Shown: positions 25,930 to 58,533, numbered from the stretch's first letter. The stretch: DNA of 64,000 bases from Leptolyngbya sp. BL-A-14 (GCA_041937185.1 CP166621.1:2452571-2516570); one strand, 5' to 3'. The notes: generated by a model not told the origin, from the letters alone. Program-made: numbers and translations.

Positions 25930-25980
25930 ACCAATCGGGATGACAGGATTCGAACCTGCGGCATCCTGCTCCCAAAGCAG
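25930..25980 (-). repeat. att core copy (3' 46 nt of tRNA-Pro plus 5 nt; partial, no 5' half)
   Basis: Matches 58455-58505 exactly. The sequence diverges immediately upstream of the anticodon stem. Confidence 0.8.
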
Positions 25981-26095: not shown

Positions 26096-26117
26096 TTTAG
26101 GGCTGATTTAGGGCTGA
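26096..26117 (+). repeat. Tandem TTTAGGGCTGA x2, identical to 58412-58433 (putative integrase arm-type sites)
   Basis: Exact 22-nt identity at both island ends in the same orientation, each followed by nnCATG. Confidence 0.6.
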
Positions 26118-26120
26118 AAC

Positions 26121-27179
26121 ATGGATGAAATAGAGCGGGTAAACGAGCGCTTAAAAGCTGCGAATGTCCCAGTACGGGTACGTTTGAAAGGAAAAAACTT
26201 GGCGCTACGTGCCACTCTGCCCAAGAAACCTGGAGACGGACTCGGTCGCAAGCAGTACGACATCAGTTTGCTGCTGTCTGCTACCAAAGATGGGCTAAAG
26301 CGAGCCGAGCGGGAAGCGCACAAGCTAGCTCAGAACTTAGCCGAAGGGTCTTTTGATTGGAAGCTTTACATCGGCTCGCAGCATGACCCACTGGCGAAGC
26401 CTATCGCCCAGTTGGTGAATGAGTTTAAGGATGAGTATTGCCGCACTCACCGCATTCAAGAAGCTACCTGGCGGAATACGTGGGCAGGAACGTTTCGCAA
26501 GCTTCCCGTAAACGAGCCTATCAGTGAAGCATTGCTGCTGGCAGCCGTCCTATCGACAGAGCAGGATAGTCGCAATCGTGAGCTTACCTGTCAACGGTTG
26601 CAACGGTTCGCTGCCTTTGCAGGTTTACAGGTGGATCTAAGTAGTTACAGTGGCGCTTATGAGCCAGAACCGCGTGATATTCCAACGGATGAAGCGATCA
26701 TTGAATGGCGCGATCGCATCCCGAATCAAAGCTGGCAGTGGGTTTATGGCATGTTGGCAACATTTGGCTTAAGACCGCACGAAGCCTTTGCCTGCGAATT
26801 TATAGACCCGCTGACACTGAAGGTGCATCAGGACACGAAAACCGGGAGCCGTACCACCCGTGCCATCCTGCCAGAGTGGGCTAAACAGTGGCAGTTAATT
26901 GAGGTGAAGTGCCCCAACACGCGCAGTAAAAGCATCAAAGGCCGTGGTGGGTTGGTGAGCCGTCAGTTTGGCAGTGAGCGATACAACTTACCCTTTGTCC
27001 CCTACGATTTGCGCCACGCCTGGGCAGTGCGGGCATCGGTTGCGAAGGGGCTACCTGTGAGCACTGCCGCTGCGATGATGGGGCACAGTGTCACTACCCA
27101 TACTCGCGTCTATCATCGCTGGTTGAGCGATGCCCAAAATGAGCGGGTCTATCGATCGCTGATTCTGGGTGAAAGTTAA
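26121..27179 (+). CDS. Tyrosine-type site-specific integrase
   Basis: C-terminal catalytic region ...YDLRHAWAVRA...MMGHSVTTHTRVYHRW carrying the R, HxxR and Y residues. Confidence 0.8.
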   Translation: MDEIERVNERLKAANVPVRVRLKGKNLALRATLPKKPGDGLGRKQYDISLLLSATKDGLKRAEREAHKLAQNLAEGSFDWKLYIGSQHDPLAKPIAQLVNEFKDEYCRTHRIQEATWRNTWAGTFRKLPVNEPISEALLLAAVLSTEQDSRNRELTCQRLQRFAAFAGLQVDLSSYSGAYEPEPRDIPTDEAIIEWRDRIPNQSWQWVYGMLATFGLRPHEAFACEFIDPLTLKVHQDTKTGSRTTRAILPEWAKQWQLIEVKCPNTRSKSIKGRGGLVSRQFGSERYNLPFVPYDLRHAWAVRASVAKGLPVSTAAAMMGHSVTTHTRVYHRWLSDAQNERVYRSLILGES

Positions 27180-27511
27180 CCTACGGCTCGGAGCTTGCGA
27201 AAATGCCGCTGCAAGGCTTTTCTGCAACTCGGAATGTGATATTCCCACGTCGGGCGATCGCCCTTGCTGACGTTGCGAATTTCGCCCTTAGCCTCGCTGA
27301 ATGCCCCATCAAGCCGCAATCTCTGGAGATGCTTCGGATTCTTCACGCCTTCATTTTGAAGCGCTGTTGCTGCGACGTTAGGCTCAGCCCACCCTTCAAC
27401 ATGGGCAGGAGTGCCAGCGATATAGTCGCGAAGCTGTCGCACCTCAGATTTAAGCTGGGCCATTTCGAGCAACATTTGGGCAAGCATTTTTTCGGCTTCT
27501 TGGGTCATGAT
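27176..27511 (-). CDS. Hypothetical protein, last gene of the replication operon
   Basis: Its start at 27511 lies 1 nt after the stop of the 1259-aa gene. ORF-track frame 27176..27601. Confidence 0.4.
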   Translation of the reverse strand: MMTQEAEKMLAQMLLEMAQLKSEVRQLRDYIAGTPAHVEGWAEPNVAATALQNEGVKNPKHLQRLRLDGAFSEAKGEIRNVSKGDRPTWEYHIPSCRKALQRHFRKLRAVG

Positions 27512-30500
27512 GCCAAAGCCTCCCTTGTTAACTCTGGAATCGCAGCTTGAAGCGCTCTGAGAGGAATAATCTGCTTGATTGCCGATCGTGCTTCCTCGCA
27601 ATCAGCGGCATCCCACATCTGCCGGATATTATCCAATTCGTCTTTGGAAAACCAGGAAGGTGGAGGCGATGCAGGCGTGTTCTCTCCGTAAGGGGCAGAC
27701 TGCCCACTGTCACGATCAACAGCGGTTTCAACGCTGCCGGGTGGGGTTTCCTGTTTCTCCTCACACTTGCTCAAGAATCTTTCTGTGAGGGCTTTAAGGA
27801 TGGTCTCGCGATCGATGTCCTCTCGATTGGTGATGGCGTACTGGCACTCGCGATCGCTACGTTTACCCTTACGACTGACTTGATCAGCCTCGTAGCCTAA
27901 CTTGCGAAGCAGCTTGTTAACGGTTTGAGTTGGGGTATGCTTTGGCATGATGGTGAGCCGCAAAAAGCGGCGAAACTGGCGTGCACGGAGTAATGCCCAC
28001 TCATGGACCGCGATCGCTTCTGGTGTCGCACTATCCCACTCCAACACGTTGCCATCGATAAACGGTTGTAGTGGGCATTCGTGCAGTAGTTTCGCCTTAC
28101 CTGCAACAACTGATAAACGATGCGCAACAACAAACTGATGGCGCTTCGCAGCCGTGCTGACTTGATATAGCCAGTCCCATCGGTTGATCTGCTGAGCCGC
28201 TTCAGGATGTTGTGACAGCCAAAGCATCTCTGTCGTCTTCAAAAAGCGCCCGCGTTTGGCAATGACTGCCTTGAGAGCAAAATCCACATCGCTAAGCGGT
28301 ACGCCAGGCAATTTGTCTTCCAGCAGGCATTTCTTGGCGACTAACCTTTGCGCGCTTGTTGAACTTGGATCGTTAAGGGCACTACGAGCTAAGGATGGTG
28401 TCAAATGGGACGTGTCAGCTTCTGCCCACTCGATCGCTTTTTCTCGGTCGATTTGCTCTAGAACTGCTTCCCAGTCGTCCGCAATGTGATCGATTCTGCC
28501 CAGAACCTGCTGTGTAACTTCGTGCCCCTGGTTCTCCCAAATCGTCATTAAGTTGTCACGTAAAGCAGTTTTGCCGTAGGCTTCCCGTGCTTTGTAACGA
28601 CTGTAATGCCGTAGGTAAAAACCTAAATCTGTGGTGTGGTCGTTCCACTGCTCATCAACCCGCTGCCATTCCTGAACTAAATCAACATCATCCTGCTGAC
28701 GCTCAGCATGACTGGCAAAATCGATCAGCTTAGCGATGCCGTTTTTGTTACGCCGCAAGTCGCGCAGAATCAGGTCTGGACGAGAACCGCTGTAAAGATC
28801 ATCCTCCGTTGCAGCACGTTCGCAGATATAGCCAAAGCGAGGCACGTCAGTACGCAGTCGATCACAGAGTTGCTTCGCTTCACGTGGTTCCAAGTGAGTA
28901 AAGTGGAACGCCATCCCACTGAAGTAGCCCTCATCATCGTCAATGCTGACGCCACTTCCCATCGTTGGGCTATAGCCAAACACTCTGGGACGACGTTCGT
29001 AAAGCCACTCGGTCGGGTTTTGGATGCACTTGTGCGCCCAGTCCTCCTGTGAGTTTTCAGAGGTGATGAAGACGCAATCAATGCCCTGGTCTTGCAGCCA
29101 GCGCTCAATTTTTGCGAGCCATCGTTGAGAGTCGCTAGTGACAACTAGGTTTTCACCCTTATCTAGGCGGATTAAAATCTCTTCGCCTGTAATTGAGGGG
29201 GAATCGTAAACATAGTAGCTGCGCGGGTTGGTGACTTGCCTGGTGAACTTTAAATGTTCTACCACCTCTAGCCCAGAAGCCTCTCGAACAAAGTCAAGCT
29301 CCAGGTTCGTTAAACCATCCTCGGAAAGAACGATCCAGCCGTCCCGCTTTGCGACTTCCCGAAATAGCTGACGGGTTCGTTCGATCACGAAAGCATGGTA
29401 GTTCTTGCAGGTATCGCCGTAGGTAACTTGCTTAAACGCTTGCCCTGCTTCGTCAACCACAATCAACGGTGGATGATTGGGTAAATTCTCTGGACTGATG
29501 AGCCCGATCGATTCAAAACAGGAAGTACCTCTAAGCCGCCCTTTGTCTCTAGCAAAATCAACCGTCGATCGATGGGGAAGCCCTAAAGTGTTGCCTGATT
29601 GCAGTCCGAGTAAATTGCGTGGAGTAAAAAGCCACTCTAACCCCAGCGGATAGCGTTTGCGGTGCTGCCCTACCAGGTCTTTTAGAGCGGTAGCTGTTTT
29701 ACCAACGCCCATTGTTCCATCGACCAGAATAATCCCTGGTTTGTCCGGTAAGCGCATTAACCCTTTGGGTATGTAGCGCCCAGACTCCCGAATCGTTGGC
29801 TCGATCCTTAACCCGTTTAACTCAGCTTGGATGCGTTCAGTTTCTTCCCTCCAGCGATCGCGTCGTCGTTGTTCTGCTTCCTCCCGTGCCTGTTTGCGAT
29901 CGTCGCTTTCCAGAGACTCTAGAAGTTCTAGATCGCCCTCAAACTCAGCCGTATAGACAGCAACGGGCTTTTGTCTACGCTGCGTCGGCAGTTCGACAAC
30001 GTTCGATGGTCTCGATGGCTGTGGCTGCCAAACTGGAGGCTCTACGCCATGCAACGACAGAAAGGCTTTTGCTTGCTCGACGTACTCTTTACCGCGTGGG
30101 AAAGGTGCCCCTTTGCCATAGGTGGCATAACGCCAATAGGTGAAGGCATCAATCCGCTTTTCGTGCGTGCAGGCAGGGCAAACATAGCCCCATGTGCCTT
30201 TCTTCCCACTGATATAGGCAGAGTTACCAGAAGTCGAATCATGCCAATAGCAACGCCCTCTAGCGTGTTCGCCGCTGGGTTCAAACTGCCAGCTGTGGTT
30301 ATATAGCTCGAAAGCGTCTTTACCCAAGCGATCGCACGTTTGTCTTACTAAATCGCTGAGTTGTGTATCCTCTGATCGCCCTTCCGCCTGCAAGCGCTGG
30401 TTGCGTTGCTCGCGTCGTTGCTGCCGTTCGGCTTCCACTTGGGCTTTTGCTGCCTCATAGCCAGCTTGACCAACTTCTAGGGCAGCTTTCACCAGTGCTG

Positions 30501-31284
30501 CTTTCTCGGCTTCCCCATGCCCCTTGTGGTTCGGGAAGATTGGATAGAGAACTTCTTTCCACCAAATATCTGAGATGGTTTCAGGAAACGCCCAGCCTTG
30601 ATAAGCAAACCAGCGGCGAAACCCTGCGACGAGTTCCTCGTAGGTGTAACGATCGTGGCTGTAGCTGAGTAACCGTTGCTCTGCATCTTTCTCCTTACGG
30701 TGGAACCCAGCAATCCGCATCGGTTGGTGCAAGCGCTCGGTAACTGGATCGGACATGAAGGCGACGATCGCCAGTCGTCTCAGGTAGTTCGCTTGCTCCA
30801 GTGGTAGATGCTGAAACGCTTTGAGATGAGCATGAATAGACTTACCGCCGCTGGTCAAGCGCGTGGCGTAGTTTAAGCCAGCAATCTGCTTGAACTGCTC
30901 GTATTTTGCCCATTGATCCTCCATTGCTAGAGAATCCATTTCGATGCCAATATCATCGGTTTCAGTGACACATCCAGCTAAAGGAAACCCGTTCGGTTGA
31001 GTGGGGATATAGGTCACGCCCCCGTCTTGATTTTGGCACCGCTCGTTAAGGTGATTCCAAGCAGTACCGACAGGCTTAAGACGTTTTCGATCCTTACCTT
31101 GACCGATCGTTGCGCGGATTGTGAAACGACCTGACTTGTTGAAGCTGCCAACAAAAACGCTGGTATCACCTTGTTTCAGCCAGATCTCACTGTTGCCGTC
31201 TTCCCCTTTGGGCTGTAGGGTGCTGATGTGCGCTTTGAAAGCTTCAAAGCCGCTAAGTCCTTGTGGAATTGAGGAAGTGTTCAT
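27505..31284 (-). CDS. Primase-helicase-like replication protein: AEP-type primase domain + Zn-ribbon + P-loop NTPase + long C-terminal region
   Basis: N-terminal domain has an acidic motif DDIGIEMD and an sGGxSIHaH-like motif TSGGKSIHAHL. Zn-ribbon CYWHD...CPAC. Walker A DGTMGVGKTA and Walker B LIVVDEAG. Start overlaps the upstream helicase stop (ATGA). Confidence 0.6.
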   Translation of the reverse strand: MNTSSIPQGLSGFEAFKAHISTLQPKGEDGNSEIWLKQGDTSVFVGSFNKSGRFTIRATIGQGKDRKRLKPVGTAWNHLNERCQNQDGGVTYIPTQPNGFPLAGCVTETDDIGIEMDSLAMEDQWAKYEQFKQIAGLNYATRLTSGGKSIHAHLKAFQHLPLEQANYLRRLAIVAFMSDPVTERLHQPMRIAGFHRKEKDAEQRLLSYSHDRYTYEELVAGFRRWFAYQGWAFPETISDIWWKEVLYPIFPNHKGHGEAEKAALVKAALEVGQAGYEAAKAQVEAERQQRREQRNQRLQAEGRSEDTQLSDLVRQTCDRLGKDAFELYNHSWQFEPSGEHARGRCYWHDSTSGNSAYISGKKGTWGYVCPACTHEKRIDAFTYWRYATYGKGAPFPRGKEYVEQAKAFLSLHGVEPPVWQPQPSRPSNVVELPTQRRQKPVAVYTAEFEGDLELLESLESDDRKQAREEAEQRRRDRWREETERIQAELNGLRIEPTIRESGRYIPKGLMRLPDKPGIILVDGTMGVGKTATALKDLVGQHRKRYPLGLEWLFTPRNLLGLQSGNTLGLPHRSTVDFARDKGRLRGTSCFESIGLISPENLPNHPPLIVVDEAGQAFKQVTYGDTCKNYHAFVIERTRQLFREVAKRDGWIVLSEDGLTNLELDFVREASGLEVVEHLKFTRQVTNPRSYYVYDSPSITGEEILIRLDKGENLVVTSDSQRWLAKIERWLQDQGIDCVFITSENSQEDWAHKCIQNPTEWLYERRPRVFGYSPTMGSGVSIDDDEGYFSGMAFHFTHLEPREAKQLCDRLRTDVPRFGYICERAATEDDLYSGSRPDLILRDLRRNKNGIAKLIDFASHAERQQDDVDLVQEWQRVDEQWNDHTTDLGFYLRHYSRYKAREAYGKTALRDNLMTIWENQGHEVTQQVLGRIDHIADDWEAVLEQIDREKAIEWAEADTSHLTPSLARSALNDPSSTSAQRLVAKKCLLEDKLPGVPLSDVDFALKAVIAKRGRFLKTTEMLWLSQHPEAAQQINRWDWLYQVSTAAKRHQFVVAHRLSVVAGKAKLLHECPLQPFIDGNVLEWDSATPEAIAVHEWALLRARQFRRFLRLTIMPKHTPTQTVNKLLRKLGYEADQVSRKGKRSDRECQYAITNREDIDRETILKALTERFLSKCEEKQETPPGSVETAVDRDSGQSAPYGENTPASPPPSWFSKDELDNIRQMWDAADCEEARSAIKQIIPLRALQAAIPELTREALAS

Positions 31285-33044
31285 TTGACCACCTCCCGCG
31301 CATCTGATAGGGCAAGGTTTAACTGCTGCTGCAAGGCTTCTAAATCAACCCCTGCAACCTTATCAGGATCGAGCGCTTCAGCTTTGGCGATATATGCTGC
31401 TTTAACCGTCTCCCATGAGGCGTTGCGATCGACTCCCAGCGTTTCATACCAGGGTGTAATCTGAAGATCAACTTCGCCCAGTTCCAGCGTCAAATGATAG
31501 CTAATCCACTGCTGCGACCATTTGCTTGCCTGATTGCAATGCCGAAACAGGTAGTTAACGAATGCTGCTTTACGGCTAGGACTATAGCGTTGGGTCAGGC
31601 AGGCATGACGCATCCACTCACCTGGTGGGTTGTGCCCAAACTCACTCACAAAATGGGCGATCGCTTCGTCAGGTGAGCGATCGGACTCGTAAGCCTGACG
31701 CTTCAATTGCCGCAACAGTTTGATTTTTTGCCGTGTCAGAGTATCGGCAAACTCGTTCAGTTGGGCTAGGACTAGCGCTTCCTGCTGGGGTTCATCTGGT
31801 TGCGCATCACCTGTAAACTCATGCCCACAATGCGGGCAAATCTGGGCGAAGACGGTCACTTCTAGCTGACAACCAGGACAGGTCTTGGTAAGCGGCTGTA
31901 CGTCATCATCCTGAACTGGCTGACTGATGTCGTAATCCTGGAACCCCATCGGGTTGCCAAACCGCTTCAAATTGCCGCCAAAATCGAGCAGGAAGTAATC
32001 TGTTTTACCTGGATAAGGACGGCTACCACGTCCAGCTGTCTGCTGAAACAATGCCCGTGACTTGGTGGCTCGAACATACAGAATCGCGCTGATTGCAGGT
32101 AGATCAAACCCAGCCGTTAGGCAACCGACGGAGCAAATCACTTTGGTGATTCCCCGCCGAACACGCTCGATGATTGCCTCGCGTTCATGGGCAGGCGTTG
32201 ACCCGACGATCACTTCAGCCGCAATGCCGCGCTGATTGAAGCGATCGCATTGCCGTCGCGCTTGCTCAACGGTTGCCCCTACCATCAGCGTTGGGCGATC
32301 CGGGCAAAGCCTCAACCATTCGTCAATAACGTGATCCAGTGCTTCTGCTTTACAGGCTTGTTCGGCGATGTCCGAATCAACGAATGTGCCACCTCTAACG
32401 CGAAGCGTTTCTAGATCAATCGCACCTGCTAGGTGAAAGCCGCGACAGGAGACAGCGCCGCCACGCTTAATGATCTCTGGTGGCTGTGGTCCAAGAACAG
32501 CTTTGTCGTACCGTTGCCCTAGACATTCTTTAGAGCTTAAGCGCCAGGGTGTAGCCGTTAGACCGATTTTAATGGCATTGGGAAAGAAGTTATCGATCGC
32601 GGCGTAGGCTGATTGGAAGGCGCTGATATGCGCTTCATCCGCCACAATCACATCAATACAGCCCAGCAGAGCGCCTAAGTCTTGACCACGACGCAGCCTG
32701 CTGGAGATGGTCTGAAGTGAGGCAACGATAACGGGTGCCGCCTCGTCCACTGGGCGATCGCCTTGCAGGATGGTGCAGTGAACGCCAAAGGATTGTAGAG
32801 TGCGAGCCGTTTGCTCTAGCAGCACATTGAGCGAGACCAGAAACACGCAGCGTCTACCCTTGCTGATAGCATCCTGCATAATCTGGGCGGCGATGACTGT
32901 TTTCCCGGCACCCATGACGGCAATCATCAAGACACGTAGGCATTTGGAGCGGATCAGGGCGTAAACCCCAGCAATCATGGCGATTTGGTAATCGCGCAAC
33001 TGAATTGTCTGCTGCTGCGGAATGGTAATGGTTTGGGCGATCAT
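31281..33044 (-). CDS. ResIII-like SF2 (DEAH) helicase with C-terminal Zn-ribbon and degenerate J-domain-like tail
   Basis: Motif I AVMGAGKT, motif II VIVADEAH, motif VI QTAGRGSR, Zn-ribbon CPGCQ...CPHCGH, and tail WYETLGV...AAYIAKAEALDPDK. Confidence 0.7.
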   Translation of the reverse strand: MIAQTITIPQQQTIQLRDYQIAMIAGVYALIRSKCLRVLMIAVMGAGKTVIAAQIMQDAISKGRRCVFLVSLNVLLEQTARTLQSFGVHCTILQGDRPVDEAAPVIVASLQTISSRLRRGQDLGALLGCIDVIVADEAHISAFQSAYAAIDNFFPNAIKIGLTATPWRLSSKECLGQRYDKAVLGPQPPEIIKRGGAVSCRGFHLAGAIDLETLRVRGGTFVDSDIAEQACKAEALDHVIDEWLRLCPDRPTLMVGATVEQARRQCDRFNQRGIAAEVIVGSTPAHEREAIIERVRRGITKVICSVGCLTAGFDLPAISAILYVRATKSRALFQQTAGRGSRPYPGKTDYFLLDFGGNLKRFGNPMGFQDYDISQPVQDDDVQPLTKTCPGCQLEVTVFAQICPHCGHEFTGDAQPDEPQQEALVLAQLNEFADTLTRQKIKLLRQLKRQAYESDRSPDEAIAHFVSEFGHNPPGEWMRHACLTQRYSPSRKAAFVNYLFRHCNQASKWSQQWISYHLTLELGEVDLQITPWYETLGVDRNASWETVKAAYIAKAEALDPDKVAGVDLEALQQQLNLALSDAREVVK

Positions 33045-33235
33045 GCGTCACCCCCTTTACCAACCGTTGATCGCTCAAGTCTCCAAAGCTCGAAAGCTTT
33101 ACGGTAAGAGCTTTTCACAAACCCGTTATAGGCAGCACTTTGATCGAGTAAAAGCAGGCGTTGCCAAGCTTGCGGCACTTGGGAAATCGTCTTAAAGCTG
33201 GCTTCAATACGCTCAAAATCAATGGGATTACTCAC
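33041..33235 (-). CDS. Small hypothetical protein, first gene of the replication operon
   Basis: 64 aa; its stop overlaps the helicase start. Confidence 0.35.
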   Translation of the reverse strand: MSNPIDFERIEASFKTISQVPQAWQRLLLLDQSAAYNGFVKSSYRKAFELWRLERSTVGKGGDA

Positions 33236-33778
33236 TTTGCAATTCCTCCTGCTAAAGAAAGAAGTTGCAGAATGAGACTCACTAGACTAATATGAGACTG
33301 ACTAATCTTCAGGAGATAGAGTGTCATGCTACCTCCTTTCGATTCTGAGAAGTCTGAGCGTTTTGCTTGGCGGCACGCCGTTTGGCTTCCATTCGCTGCC
33401 AGCGCTGCAACAATCGTTTCTGCTGATTGTTGAGAAAAGAGCCTGTCTGCTGTCGTTGCAGTAGGGCTTGAGCCTGTCTTCGGAGTCGAGAGTGGTAGTG
33501 AGAGAGCGGTCTGAGGGCTGTTACACCCTGCGGCTTATCAGCTATCATTTCCATTGCAAAGCTACCCACTTCCTGGGTGGGTTCTAATGTTGCCTGAAGG
33601 CGATCGCTCAGTCCAGGCGTCGGAAACTTGGGAACCGAAGCGGTCGCCTTTTGATGTGCCCAGGCGTCGGACTTGGGAACACATCAGATAGCCACTTCAG
33701 CACTGCGCGATCGCGGTTATTCTTCTTTGATACTCGATTCAGAAAAAAGATAGGAAAAGTCGCGACGGTTAACACTTC

Positions 33779-38907: not shown

Positions 38908-39248
38908 TGTTGCCTGGCTACGAGCCCGAAGACGAGCCACAGGAAGACGATCGCATTGATTACGCGCTGCAAGGGATTAGCCGTTTTACGGGGCTGTTTG
39001 CCTTGGGCGTGACCGTTACTTTAGTTGTGCGCTGGATGCCCGCACTCTTGCCCTTCTATTGGATTGGGGCGATCGCCTGCATTCTTTCCTTAGCGCTGCC
39101 TGCCTATCTTTCCCGTAGCGCAAGGTTACTGGCAATTGCAATCGCGCTCATTGTTGCCATCTTCTCAGGTTGGTTTGATGCACTCAACCACACCACACAG
39201 CAGCTCAATCAACAAGTCCAAACGCAAGTGAAGGAGGTATTGAAGTGA
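38880..39248 (+). CDS. Membrane protein (3 predicted TM segments)
   Basis: Hydrophobic segments. Its stop overlaps the start of the downstream ATPase gene. Confidence 0.4.
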   Translation: MFDRYQSPLMLPGYEPEDEPQEDDRIDYALQGISRFTGLFALGVTVTLVVRWMPALLPFYWIGAIACILSLALPAYLSRSARLLAIAIALIVAIFSGWFDALNHTTQQLNQQVQTQVKEVLK

Positions 39249-40798
39249 AAGACCCCTATCTACCGCAGATTCTAGGGCTGCTGGCTGCTGGCATGACTGC
39301 GACCGGCTTAAGCATTTCAGGCTACCTGCATCAGCCAGAAACGTTCCGCTTTCTGGGTACTGAGCTGACCTATCAAGCCGCCTATCGCAAGATTCCGCTG
39401 AGTCTGGCTGGCTCTGGTTTGTGCATCTCCGCTTGGCTACTCACTCAGACCCGCAAAGATTATCGACGGCAATACGAGCAATGGGAACGCCAAATGCTAA
39501 TGAAGCAAGGGCAAATGCAGGCGATCGCGCATCAAGCAGAACTGGAAGGGTATCAACAGGTGGCTCAGTTACAGGCTGCCGAACGGCTTTACCCCCAGAT
39601 GGCACCGTATTTGTCAGATGTCCAAGATGCCGACTATCAGGAAGTGTCAGCGCCACAACCGCAGGCTACCCCGCAGCCACAGGCATCAACCGCTGCTCCT
39701 GGACAACCAGCCATGCCTGTTACTCCCACGTCGGATTCCACGTCCGACCCGACGGCTTACCTGCAAAACTTCCTGGAATATCCAGGGCTCTTATTTGGCG
39801 GTATGGGTGCTGGGAAGAGTTGGACAGCGCGTTACCTGGTCATGCAAAAAGCCCGTGCTGGGCATCAGGTCGTCGTGCTAGACCCTCATGCGGCCAATCA
39901 CGAATGGCAAGGCATTCGGCATATCGGTGCCGGAATGGATTACCGCGCGATCGCTGAGTTCTTGTCCTGGTATCTGGATGAAATCGAGCGCCGTTACCAA
40001 GAGTTCAACAAGTCAGGGCTGAGTGAGGAAGACTGGCAGCAGAGTGTGAGACAGCAGGGGCGCATCATCAGTGTGGTGTGTGAGGAGATGACCAACTGGG
40101 CGGATCGATTGCCCGGTGACATCGGCAGCCGTTTCTTCAAGTCAGCCATGAGTGACAGCCGCAAGGTGTTGATGCCGCCATTGTTTGTGGCTCACGATCG
40201 CACCTTGTCAGCACTGGGAGATGCCAAGGGCGTTGCCCGGTTACGTGATGCAGCGCTGCTGGAATTAGAACTGATTCCCACCATTCACCCCACAACGCGG
40301 AAGCCAGTTTCAAGCGGTCAGGGCAAGTTAAAGCTGCCTGGTCATGGTGAATGGTTGCCTGTTGAACTGCCGAAGTGCGATCGCAAAATCACAGACTTTA
40401 CCGTCTATCAGCAGCCGCAACAGCAGCCCTATACTCAACCACAATCAACACAGCAACAAGCACCGCTACCAACACAGCAACCACAACCAGACTTCCGAAC
40501 TCAGGTTACTAAGTGGCTTAAAGATTGCTGGGAAGCAGAATCGCCACAAGATGAGCCAAAAGCAGCACCGAGCAGAATCGATTCTCTACCCGATGGCAAC
40601 CTGAGAAACTTAGCAGCTTATCTACGCAAGAAAAAGCAGATAGCTGTGAGAGATGTCAAGCGAAACTGGGGTAGTTCCTACTCGTTAAATGGTGAGCAGG
40701 TACAAGATTTGTTGATTGAATTAATCGAGATGAATCTAATTGAGACCTTCTTACCTGACACTTCTAAGGCTGAATGGGTGCGATGGTCTGAAACATAG
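39245..40798 (+). CDS. Membrane-anchored P-loop NTPase, TraD/VirD4/FtsK-like (putative DNA-transfer coupling protein)
   Basis: N-terminal TM segments, Walker A GGMGAGKS followed by VVVLDPH (resembles the hhhDPKG motif of coupling proteins), and a Walker-B-like IISVVCEE. Confidence 0.4.
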   Translation: MKDPYLPQILGLLAAGMTATGLSISGYLHQPETFRFLGTELTYQAAYRKIPLSLAGSGLCISAWLLTQTRKDYRRQYEQWERQMLMKQGQMQAIAHQAELEGYQQVAQLQAAERLYPQMAPYLSDVQDADYQEVSAPQPQATPQPQASTAAPGQPAMPVTPTSDSTSDPTAYLQNFLEYPGLLFGGMGAGKSWTARYLVMQKARAGHQVVVLDPHAANHEWQGIRHIGAGMDYRAIAEFLSWYLDEIERRYQEFNKSGLSEEDWQQSVRQQGRIISVVCEEMTNWADRLPGDIGSRFFKSAMSDSRKVLMPPLFVAHDRTLSALGDAKGVARLRDAALLELELIPTIHPTTRKPVSSGQGKLKLPGHGEWLPVELPKCDRKITDFTVYQQPQQQPYTQPQSTQQQAPLPTQQPQPDFRTQVTKWLKDCWEAESPQDEPKAAPSRIDSLPDGNLRNLAAYLRKKKQIAVRDVKRNWGSSYSLNGEQVQDLLIELIEMNLIETFLPDTSKAEWVRWSET

Positions 40799-52126: not shown

Positions 52127-52921
52127 TCACAAAGTAAACAAGGTCTTGAAAGTTTTGACTTTAGCGGTATCAATGCCACAGTCCAGCTTTGTGAGCGGGG
52201 TCAAACTCTTCCACTTACTCCTGTTCGCACTGGCAATCAGATCAGAGACGGCTTCAGGGTCGATCGTGTCAAAGCCCCCAATTTTATAGGTGTTTAGATA
52301 GTTCAAGCGCTCAAAGATTTCGGCTTTCGATGCCTGCTTGATGCTGATGACGGACGGTGGTGCTGGCGGTGGCGGCGGCGGAGTCAAGTAAAAGACAGCG
52401 CTCAAAGCATCGAGCTTCTTGCCCTTCGTGATACCGCACCCAAGCTTAGTAATGGGTGTGAAGTCTTGCCAGGTACTGCGATCCACAGCCGCAATCTTAC
52501 TGGCAGCGATCGTGGCATCGACTGTTTTCAAGGGACTGCCAGGCTGATTAACAAGATGCTTCAAAACCGACTTGATTGTCTCTCTAGAAGCAGTTGTGAA
52601 ATTCACTTTGGGAGTCACTTCTCCAGCGAGAATGCGAGCCTGTTCAATGTCTGGCGTGCTGGACTTAATGACAAGGCACCAAAGTTCCTCTAGTCCTGCT
52701 TGAGTCGCAACGACATAGACAAAATGGTTGGTAACTGCCCTGTACGTATAATCTTCGACCTCTTCCACTAATAACGGCATCCAGTTATGCCCGCCAGTTT
52801 TGAGGAGCGCCTCAGCAGCAGCAGCAACAATGTACTCAGGGGGAGCTGCATAATCGTCAGTGGGTAGAATGCTGTCGATCGGCAGACACATGAGTTGCCC
52901 GACGTTATCAAAATCACTCAT
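52127..52921 (-). CDS. ParB-like N-terminal domain protein with a duplicated C-terminal ~45-aa repeat
   Basis: N-terminus LMCLPIDSILP...MPLLVEEVEDYTYRAVTNHFVYVVA is ParB/Srx-like but degenerate. Internal repeats RSTWQDFTPITKLGCGITKGKKL and RSKWKSLTPLTKLDCGIDTAKVK are separated by a PPPPPPAPP linker. Overlaps the upstream ParA-fusion gene by 8 nt. Confidence 0.45.
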   Translation of the reverse strand: MSDFDNVGQLMCLPIDSILPTDDYAAPPEYIVAAAAEALLKTGGHNWMPLLVEEVEDYTYRAVTNHFVYVVATQAGLEELWCLVIKSSTPDIEQARILAGEVTPKVNFTTASRETIKSVLKHLVNQPGSPLKTVDATIAASKIAAVDRSTWQDFTPITKLGCGITKGKKLDALSAVFYLTPPPPPPAPPSVISIKQASKAEIFERLNYLNTYKIGGFDTIDPEAVSDLIASANRSKWKSLTPLTKLDCGIDTAKVKTFKTLFTL

Positions 52922-54278
52922 TTAGAAAATACTCCCTGGCGAGTTCAAGATAATAGGCGTGAATTTTCTTGTTTTTGAGCACAGCAGGTACGCGTGCAAA
53001 AGCAGAACTGGAAACAACGGCATAGTCTGGGAGGTTGAACACGGTTTTGTCCACGTTGCCAGGTCGGATCTTAGGAAAAAAATACGGCAACATATTAATC
53101 CCATCTGCTGGGTTTGCCTTTAAAATTCGCTCAATCTCCTCGCGTGCCATATCGATTGAGCGACCAGCAGCAGGACTGCCATTGAAGAAAATGGGAAGCG
53201 CGATCGGCCCACCATCTTGCCTTAACGTTTTGACCTTGGGCACAAACTCCTGCACAACTCTGGCAGCATTATGGAGCGATGACAGATCATCATGGCGAGT
53301 GGGAATCAGTACAGCATCAGCTGCATAAACCCCACTCTGACTAAAAAAAACCCATTGTGTCGGACAGTCAATAAAGATGTAGTCATACTCGTTGCTAAAC
53401 GGTTGCAGCAAATCTCTGAGCCGAGCGGACGCTTTCTGTACACGGGCTTGGGTATCTTGGGTAAACGCTTCCATACCCAGATCTGCTGGTATTACATCAA
53501 AAATGTGATACACCTTCCCAGCTCTTAGAGTCACTTTATACGGCACGATGGTCGAGCGGATATCTAAAGCTCTGTCTTTTAAGCACTCAGACAGCTTGAT
53601 GTTGTTTGGCTGTAGCCCTAAAGATGTTGTCAAATCACGCTGGGAGTCGAAGTCAACCAATAGTACTTTCTTCTTCTCAGCTGCTAAAGCCGATGCCAAG
53701 TTGATAGTCGTCGTCGTTTTACCTACGCCACCCTTGTTGTTGTAGACACAAACACTGAGGCTGCGAGGAGGATTGTCAATCAGTTTCTTGATTTGATCAA
53801 CGACAGACTTAATATTCTCTCCAGTAATTTCAATGCATTTCGTTGCAGGCACAACAGCCTTGTTGTGATGTCTAAAAAGCTGAATATGAGTTGAGTTAGT
53901 AATAATACCCCAGTGGGCAGTCTTGCCTTTGGGGGAGAGCAGATACCGTTTTAGTTGTGCTCTCGTTGATAGGTATTGTCTAGAGCCCTCTGCTAGATTG
54001 ATGGGGCTGCCTCCACCTGTAAAGCGCCCTTTAATTTCAACCATTAAGAAAGGATCGGCTTTAGTAAAGCTGAAGTTGTCATCAGCTGTGTTCTTGCGAG
54101 CAGCAAAATCAACACTGTCGCTTCCTGCTCCAGTCGCCAATTCACCTACGCGCTCATTTGCGCTAAAGCCCAGCGCTTCCAACAAGTAAGGGACAAAGTG
54201 ACTACCCACGTCAGCTTCTGTTGCCTGCGGAGGAATATTGGCTAAAACTTTGCTCCAATCCATCAACGCTGACCCCAC
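52914..54278 (-). CDS. Fusion of an HSDR_N-like PD-(D/E)xK nuclease-fold domain to a ParA/MinD-type Walker ATPase
   Basis: N-terminal ~150 aa: EADVGSHFVPYLLEALGF...DSVDF...DPFLMVEIKG, a restriction-enzyme N-terminal-like D...E.K pattern. C-terminus has the deviant Walker A YNNKGGVGKTTTT, LLVDFDSQ and IFIDCP of ParA. Confidence 0.6.
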   Translation of the reverse strand: MGSALMDWSKVLANIPPQATEADVGSHFVPYLLEALGFSANERVGELATGAGSDSVDFAARKNTADDNFSFTKADPFLMVEIKGRFTGGGSPINLAEGSRQYLSTRAQLKRYLLSPKGKTAHWGIITNSTHIQLFRHHNKAVVPATKCIEITGENIKSVVDQIKKLIDNPPRSLSVCVYNNKGGVGKTTTTINLASALAAEKKKVLLVDFDSQRDLTTSLGLQPNNIKLSECLKDRALDIRSTIVPYKVTLRAGKVYHIFDVIPADLGMEAFTQDTQARVQKASARLRDLLQPFSNEYDYIFIDCPTQWVFFSQSGVYAADAVLIPTRHDDLSSLHNAARVVQEFVPKVKTLRQDGGPIALPIFFNGSPAAGRSIDMAREEIERILKANPADGINMLPYFFPKIRPGNVDKTVFNLPDYAVVSSSAFARVPAVLKNKKIHAYYLELAREYFLNE

Positions 54279-58411: not shown

Positions 58412-58433
58412 TTTAGGGCTGATTTAGGGCTGA
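58412..58433 (+). repeat. Tandem TTTAGGGCTGA x2, identical to 26096-26117
   Basis: Exact identity with the left-end copy. It lies 22 nt from the att core. Confidence 0.6.
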
Positions 58434-58459
58434 TTCATGACCCTGATCCCCAAAACCAA

Positions 58460-58533
58460 TCGGGATGACAGGATTCGAACCTGCGGCATCCTGCTCCCAA
58501 AGCAGGCGCGCTACCAAGCTGCGCTACATCCCG
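58460..58533 (-). tRNA. tRNA-Pro (anticodon UGG), CCA not encoded
   Basis: Hand-folded cloverleaf: acceptor CGGGATG/CATCCCG, D-stem GCGC/GCGC, anticodon stem CCTGC/GCAGG with loop TTTGGGA, T-loop TTCGAAT, 74 nt. Confidence 0.9.

What the first reader, a model, noticed from the sequence alone, without database searches (positions are those of the whole stretch)
27176..33235. Four-gene translationally coupled replication module: small protein - ResIII-like helicase - 1259-aa primase-Zn-P-loop protein - small protein
On the minus strand the four ORFs overlap or abut by -4, -4 and +1 nt (33235>33041, 33044>31281, 31284>27505, 27511>27176). The 587-aa protein has SF2 motifs I, II and VI (GAGKT, DEAH, QTAGRGSR) and a CxxC...CxxC zinc ribbon. 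The 1259-aa protein combines an archaeo-eukaryotic-primase-like N-terminus (acidic DDIGIEMD motif; TSGGKSIHAHL resembling the sGxGxH motif), a CxxH...CxxC Zn-ribbon, a Walker A/B NTPase (GVGKT; LIVVDEAG) and a ~500-aa C-terminal region with no motif I recognise. Having both a separate SF2 helicase and a primase-NTPase fusion is atypical. The uncharacterised C-terminal half and the two small partner proteins are candidates for new functions such as origin binding or exclusion.
Basis: partly seen in the sequence, partly recalled or inferred. Interest (0 to 1): 0.6.

Follow-up and report, generated by a model that had tools for sequence, protein, structure and literature searches.

The report
Primase-helicase replication genes of integrated element
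These genes are the DNA-replication unit of a 32.5-kb mobile element inserted into a proline tRNA gene of a filamentous cyanobacterium; its large protein joins a primase to a helicase in a layout already described, so this is a well-defined but fairly ordinary find.

Summary

The "unrecognised" C-terminal half is not new. Residues ~500-1173 are homologous to Slr7037 (CyRepA1), the experimentally proven cyanobacterial plasmid replication protein (hhalign E 5.6e-36). They fold as an SF2 helicase closest to the herpesvirus UL9 origin-binding protein. The separate 587-aa protein is a RadD-like helicase and only an occasional partner.

The fourth gene belongs with the integrase, not the replication genes. 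In 8 of 8 contexts its homologs lie tail-to-tail with a XisA/XisC-type recombinase, whatever replication gene is nearby.

The cluster lies at the left end of a 32.5-kb element bounded by a 50-nt repeat of the tRNA-Pro 3' end. That element also carries a ParA-like partition gene.

AEP + CHC2 and AEP + UL9-like helicase fusions in tRNA-integrated elements were described in 2018. Verdict: new member of a known kind, with modest interest.

The parts
25931..25980 (.). attL core: a displaced copy of the last 46 nt of tRNA-Pro plus 4 nt, identical to 58456-58505.
   Evidence: repeat D2, spacing 32525; 50 identical bases. Homology with the S. frigidus element stops at 25934, inside this copy.
26096..26117 (+). 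Two tandem copies of TTTAGGGCTGA immediately upstream of the integrase start. Candidate arm-type integrase sites or an integrase operator.
   Evidence: 4 exact copies in the window, 2 at each element end, against 0.02 expected. The same 11-mer lies just upstream of XisAC-type integrase starts in L001, L042 and L047.
26121..27179 (+). Tyrosine recombinase (352 aa) of the XisA/XisC type; the element's integrase.
   Evidence: PHROG 1 integrase, E 3.6e-12. Weak Pfam Phage_integrase hit. The 96%-identical S. frigidus orthologue carries XisAC_N and XisAC_2nd.
27176..27508 (-). ATGA-coupled to Rep and overlapping the integrase tail-to-tail by 4 nt. Inferred to be an integrase cofactor or excision-directionality factor.
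   Evidence: Start and overlap. 66 homologues, 47-96% identical. Tail-to-tail with a XisAC recombinase in 8 of 8 contexts, regardless of the replication gene. No Pfam, PDB or PADLOC match.
27505..31284 (-). Rep, 1259 aa: AEP primase + CHC2 zinc-binding domain + CyRepA/UL9-like SF2 helicase + helical C-terminal region.
30535..31284 (-). Rep residues 1-250: AEP primase-polymerase catalytic domain. Motif I is IGIExD (E115, D117), motif II SGGKSIH (H151), motif III D179, motif IV R190.
30040..30372 (-). Rep residues ~305-415: CHC2 zinc-binding domain (C345, H348, C369, C372) of DnaG type.
28795..29736 (-). Rep residues ~517-830: two-lobed SF2 helicase core. Walker A is GVGKT (K529), Walker B is VVDE (D611, E612), motif VI is QLCDRLR (Q805, R809, R811).
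27508..28794 (-). Rep residues ~831-1259: mostly helical C-terminal region, homologous to the C-terminal third of Slr7037 up to about residue 1173. It is followed by a disordered linker (about 1188-1208) and a small helical tail. Inferred origin-recognition or protein-interaction region.
   Evidence: hhalign of A2 against Slr7037 aligns 617 columns, reaching Slr7037 residue 946 of 958. The function is inference only.
31281..33044 (-). 587-aa RadD-like SF2 helicase with a CxxC...CxxC zinc ribbon and a truncated J-like C-terminal motif (DPD in place of HPD).
   Evidence: ResIII, Helicase_C and UPF0547. RadD model at E 2.3e-34, far below its cutoff. PDB 6jde RadD at E 5.4e-28. PHROG 16 DNA helicase at E 6.8e-73.
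33041..33235 (-). 64-aa basic protein (pI 9.3) with a GTG start and an AGGAGG ribosome-binding site, ATGA-coupled to the helicase. Function unknown.
   Evidence: A 31% relative (72 aa) lies upstream of the Rep gene in L002 and L012; there is none in S. frigidus. No family match.
33324..33569 (-). 81-aa very basic protein (pI 11.9), the likely first gene of the operon.
   Evidence: 71% identical to the 78-aa S. frigidus gene, which there overlaps the helicase start. No family match.
33613..33680 (.). Two copies of CCAGGCGTCGGA(A)ACTTGGGAAC spaced 47 nt apart, upstream of the 81-aa ORF. Candidate operator or origin-recognition sites.
   Evidence: D5, D1, D2. At the same position S. frigidus has a two-copy repeat of a different sequence between conserved flanks.
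52914..54278 (-). ParA-family partition ATPase (454 aa), with an overlapping downstream 264-aa gene (52127-52921). This is the plasmid-like segregation module of the same element.
   Evidence: AAA_31, CbiA and ParA. The plasmid partition RepA and ParA models match.
58412..58433 (+). Two tandem copies of TTTAGGGCTGA at the right end of the element, 22 nt from the att core.
58456..58505 (.). attR core, lying within the intact tRNA-Pro(TGG) gene (58460-58533, minus strand).

Best explanation
The cluster is the replication operon of a ~32.5-kb integrative, plasmid-like element (about 25931-58505) inserted into the 3' end of tRNA-Pro(TGG) in the chromosome of a Stenomitos/Leptolyngbyaceae-type cyanobacterium. 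The operon, on the minus strand, reads: 81-aa ORF, 64-aa ORF, RadD-like helicase, Rep, 110-aa ORF.

Shown here:
- The 1259-aa protein has three parts. First, an AEP primase-polymerase domain related to the All3500/S-2L PrimPol/RepB' group, with every catalytic residue conserved. Second, a DnaG-type CHC2 zinc-binding domain. Third, the SF2 helicase plus helical tail that makes up the C-terminal two-thirds of CyRepA1 (Slr7037), whose nearest solved fold is the herpesvirus UL9 origin-binding helicase.
- The element has 50-nt att repeats and flanking 11-mer repeats at both ends.
- It carries a XisA/XisC-type integrase and a ParA-like partition gene.

Inferred:
- After excision by the integrase, probably assisted by the 110-aa protein, the circular form replicates as a plasmid.
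- Rep recognises an origin through its C-terminal region and opens DNA with its SF2 motor.
- The zinc domain selects the start site and the AEP domain makes, and perhaps extends, the primer. Host polymerase then takes over.
- The RadD-like helicase is an optional accessory, for example in fork or recombination-intermediate processing.
- The ATGA coupling of Rep to the 110-aa gene would tie excision to replication, as in the repSA-xis-int operon of pSAM2-type actinomycete elements (from my own knowledge).
For: - ORFs, overlaps and ribosome-binding sites.
- Slr7037 is required for autonomous replication of pSYSA and of derived vectors (PMC9978351).
- A 1244-aa protein with the same AEP + CyRepA layout is the only Rep-like gene annotated in the stretch read from the 17.9-kb plasmid pGM03, and it passes the NF042913 cutoff.
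- Element: att repeats and tRNA, arm motif, left boundary from comparison with S. frigidus, ParA. No phage structural hits.
- The 110-aa gene is always next to the integrase.
Against: - No activity was measured, and no excised circle or empty site was observed.
- The Rep score on NF042913 (155 bits) is below NCBI's cutoff of 200.
- No origin was identified. The region upstream of the operon has no AT-rich stretch or tandem iterons.
- The element could be a decaying island whose genes are still intact.
- S-2L PrimPol, the closest solved AEP, showed polymerase but no primase activity in standard assays (PMC8065100). Priming by this clade is therefore assumed, not proven.
Confidence: 0.75

Rival explanations
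1. It is the replication module of a prophage or phage satellite rather than of a plasmid-like integrative element. Rep and the helicase would then drive phage-type replication after induction.
For: The RadD-like helicase matches PHROG 16 strongly (E 6.8e-73), and Rep matches phrog_4913 'replication' weakly. The closest solved AEP is from a cyanophage. The 517-aa ATPase at 39245-40798 gives a faint terminase-like hit (E 9e-4).
Against: None of 10 further element ORFs hit a capsid, portal, tail or lysis PHROG. The N-module has no match in 50,697 phage records. The element carries a ParA-type partition gene. Relatives of both Rep modules sit on cyanobacterial plasmids, and related contigs carry ParM-like partition genes.
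Confidence: 0.1
2. The 1259-aa protein is a transfer-associated primase-helicase, used to prime the incoming strand after conjugation or mobilisation, rather than the vegetative replication initiator.
For: RepB'-type and other AEP or Toprim primases are often linked to mobilisation proteins (PMC5862659, RepB' family section). The element encodes a HerA/FtsK/AAA_10-like ATPase (39245-40798, weak) that could be a DNA translocase.
Against: The homologous C-module in Slr7037 is genetically required for plasmid maintenance (PMC9978351). No relaxase or type IV secretion gene was detected among the element ORFs scanned. pGM03, which PLSDB types as non-mobilizable, has the same kind of protein as the only Rep-like gene annotated in the stretch read.
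Confidence: 0.08
3. The element is an immobilised remnant. The genes are conserved for a host-beneficial role such as defence or repair, and no longer replicate anything.
For: Many chromosomal AEP-carrying elements are immobilised (PMC5862659, supplementary table lists 'iMGE, immobilized'). The helicase resembles the motor domains of restriction enzymes.
Against: The att cores are 50 of 50 identical and the arm motifs are intact at both ends. All catalytic residues are conserved. Rep and the small proteins match no PADLOC model. The same element type sits in different flanking contexts in related genomes, which implies recent mobility.
Confidence: 0.07

Closest known systems
CyRepA1 (Slr7037 of Synechocystis pSYSA) and the NCBIfam NF042913 family
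   Same: Residues ~500-1173 are homologous to Slr7037 residues 302-946 (hhalign 99.9% probability, E 5.6e-36). Both have a primase-type N-terminus fused to a UL9/Herpes_ori_bp-like SF2 helicase. Both have small ORFs directly upstream of the rep gene. Both are cyanobacterial.
   Different: The N-terminus is an AEP + CHC2 module instead of the Toprim-like DUF3854. The score is below the curated cutoff (155 versus 200 bits), and identity is only about 21%. The gene lies in an integrated element, not a plasmid. The upstream small proteins are unrelated to Ssr7036, and a RadD-like helicase is inserted upstream.
All3500-like AEP family / PrimPol-PV1 supergroup (Iyer 2005; Kazlauskas 2018, PMC5862659), including cyanophage S-2L PrimPol (6ZP9) and RSF1010 RepB'
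   Same: It has the AEP fold with motifs I-IV, and a His in motif II as in All3500 rather than the Gln of RepB'. The prototype All3500 has the layout Prim+zf-CHC2+helicase+WH and sits in a 39.8-kb element integrated in a tRNA gene. The family also includes 'Prim+SF2_VOG3399-like' proteins whose helicases resemble UL9.
   Different: It is only 22% identical to the All3500 Prim domain and 14% to S-2L. It forms a small clade found almost only in cyanobacterial records: 123 representatives at E<=1e-30 among 1.84 billion. I did not see the combination zf-CHC2 plus UL9-like helicase in the part of that paper's table that I read.
Herpesvirus UL9 origin-binding protein
   Different: Sequence identity is about 14%. 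There is no evidence that the C-terminal region here resembles the UL9 DNA-binding domain. UL9 has no fused primase.
E. coli RadD (for the 587-aa protein)
   Same: The SF2 core plus the zinc-ribbon arrangement align over residues 16-399 (6jde, E 5.4e-28).
   Different: It scores far below the RadD equivalog cutoff (119 versus 720 bits). It has a different C-terminus with a degenerate J-like motif, and it is encoded on a mobile element.
pSAM2-type actinomycete integrative elements (repSA-xis-int operon); recalled from my own knowledge, not tested here
   Same: Both are tRNA-integrating elements that combine a Rep gene, a small gene next to the integrase and a tyrosine integrase, so that excision and replication are co-expressed.
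   Different: The Rep type is unrelated (rolling-circle RepSA versus primase-helicase). Here the integrase is convergent, not co-directional.

Membership tests
CyRepA1 family (NF042913 / Slr7037) | C-terminal helicase-like region homologous to Slr7037 | tested here: met
   NF042913 at E 2.6e-45, covering residues 517-1133 and model positions 3-592 of 595. hhalign of A2 against Slr7037 gives 99.9% probability, E 5.6e-36, 617 columns.
CyRepA1 family (NF042913 / Slr7037) | Score at or above NCBI's curated cutoff (200 bits) | tested here: not met
   155.4 bits. Relatives with the same layout do pass: P0005 at 348, P0007 at 238 and the pGM03 protein at 217 bits.
CyRepA1 family (NF042913 / Slr7037) | N-terminal DUF3854 (Toprim-like) domain, as described for CyRepA1 and CyRepA2 (PMC10079941) | tested here: not met
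   The window protein has no Pfam hit, whereas Slr7037 gives DUF3854 at E 3.4e-50. The N-terminus here folds as an AEP.
CyRepA1 family (NF042913 / Slr7037) | Supports autonomous replication | not testable with these tools
   Needs a replication assay in a cyanobacterial host.
AEP superfamily, PrimPol-PV1 / All3500-like | AEP catalytic fold | tested here: met
AEP superfamily, PrimPol-PV1 / All3500-like | Motifs I (hhhDhD/E), II (sxH), III (hD) and IV (Arg) | tested here: met
   IGIEMD (E115, D117), SGGKSIH (H151), SD (D179) and HQPMR (R190) are all invariant in 24 homologues.
AEP superfamily, PrimPol-PV1 / All3500-like | Sequence-level affiliation with the All3500 prototype | tested here: inconclusive
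   hhalign of A1 against the WP_010997650 Prim domain gives 93.4% probability, E 2.5e-7 and 22% identity over 142 columns. This shows a relationship, but no clustering analysis was done to place it inside or beside the family.
AEP superfamily, PrimPol-PV1 / All3500-like | Primase and/or polymerase activity | not testable with these tools
   Biochemistry is required.
DnaG-type CHC2 zinc-binding domain | C-x2-H ... C-x2-C ligands and the zinc-ribbon fold | tested here: met
UL9 / Herpes_ori_bp-like SF2 helicase | Two RecA lobes with Walker A, Walker B and a motif VI arginine finger | tested here: met
UL9 / Herpes_ori_bp-like SF2 helicase | Sequence-specific origin binding by the C-terminal domain | not tested
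RadD (NF053632) for the 587-aa protein | Equivalog-level score | tested here: not met
   118.7 bits against a cutoff of 720. It is RadD-like by domain order and PDB match, but not an orthologue.
tRNA-integrated mobile element | Direct repeats that include the tRNA 3' end, with an adjacent tyrosine recombinase | tested here: met
   50-nt identical repeats at 25931-25980 and 58456-58505, the latter inside tRNA-Pro. The integrase is at 26121.
tRNA-integrated mobile element | An empty site or an excised circle observed | not tested
   No genome with an unoccupied tRNA-Pro site was retrieved. Only the left boundary is supported, by comparison with S. frigidus.
Excisionase / recombination directionality factor (110-aa protein) | Small basic protein encoded next to the integrase | tested here: met
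   pI 9.7. Tail-to-tail with a XisAC-type integrase in 8 of 8 contexts.
Excisionase / recombination directionality factor (110-aa protein) | Winged-helix/HTH fold or similarity to known Xis families | tested here: inconclusive
   No Pfam hit at E<=10 and no significant PDB profile hit.

The most novel reading that the evidence does not exclude
The most novel reading has two parts.

(a) The 110-aa protein founds an undescribed family of directionality or cofactor proteins for XisA/XisC-type recombinases. Its ATGA coupling to Rep and its convergent overlap with the integrase gene would then form a switch that ties excision to episomal replication. On this view these Leptolyngbyaceae elements are live relatives of the elements that heterocyst-forming cyanobacteria excise during development.

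(b) The CyRepA/UL9-like helicase is a chassis on which three different primase modules are swapped between proteins that are 40-63% identical in the helicase part: Toprim-like DUF3854, Prim-Pol+PriCT-2, and All3500-like AEP+CHC2 (DUF3854 is structurally unrelated to the two AEP-type modules). This would be a natural experiment in primase interchangeability.
Probability: 0.3. Interest if true: 0.45.

Novelty: new member of a known kind. Interest (0 to 1): 0.3.

Why it matters
Few replication proteins are known for cyanobacteria, and they are in demand for building vectors. This locus supplies a divergent CyRepA-type Rep with an AEP primase head, in a self-contained unit with integrase, att sites and partition genes. 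That unit could be tested as an integrative or replicative tool for filamentous cyanobacteria.

The comparison also connects two separate literatures. The CyRepA helicase domain looks like the same kind of UL9-like SF2 helicase that Kazlauskas et al. (2018) found fused to All3500-family primases.

The comparison further shows that closely related helicase modules carry three different primase modules, and that a conserved 110-aa protein always accompanies XisA/XisC-type integrases. These points are useful to people working on mobile elements, but they do not overturn anything.

Tried and rejected
- Origin in the 33.24-33.78 kb 'gap': Tandem Repeats Finder found nothing there. GC content is 45-52% with no AT-rich dip. 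Most short inverted repeats are GCGATCGC (HIP1) palindromes, which are common in cyanobacteria. Much of the gap is a conserved 81-aa ORF. Only a two-copy repeat at 33613-33680 remains as a candidate site.
- Promoter and terminator scans of 26.9-36 kb were no better than shuffled sequence.
- Rfam found only the tRNA, so there is no known replication-control RNA.
- The two small upstream proteins show no similarity to Ssr7036 of pSYSA.
- Pfam, NCBIfam, PHROGs and PADLOC gave nothing for the 64-, 81- and 110-aa proteins or for the 267-aa neighbour. The PDB profile search with the 110-aa family also gave nothing.
- Defence-system reading: Rep has no PADLOC hit, and the helicase gets only generic motor-domain hits.
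- Phage origin of the N-module: no tblastn hit in 50,697 phage records.
- A direct sequence search of the whole Rep against PDB gave nothing useful. The profile and fold searches were what resolved it.
- A conserved four-gene module: rejected, because gene content differs between relatives. S. frigidus lacks the 64-aa ORF. L002 lacks both the helicase and the 110-aa gene. L003 has Rep alone.

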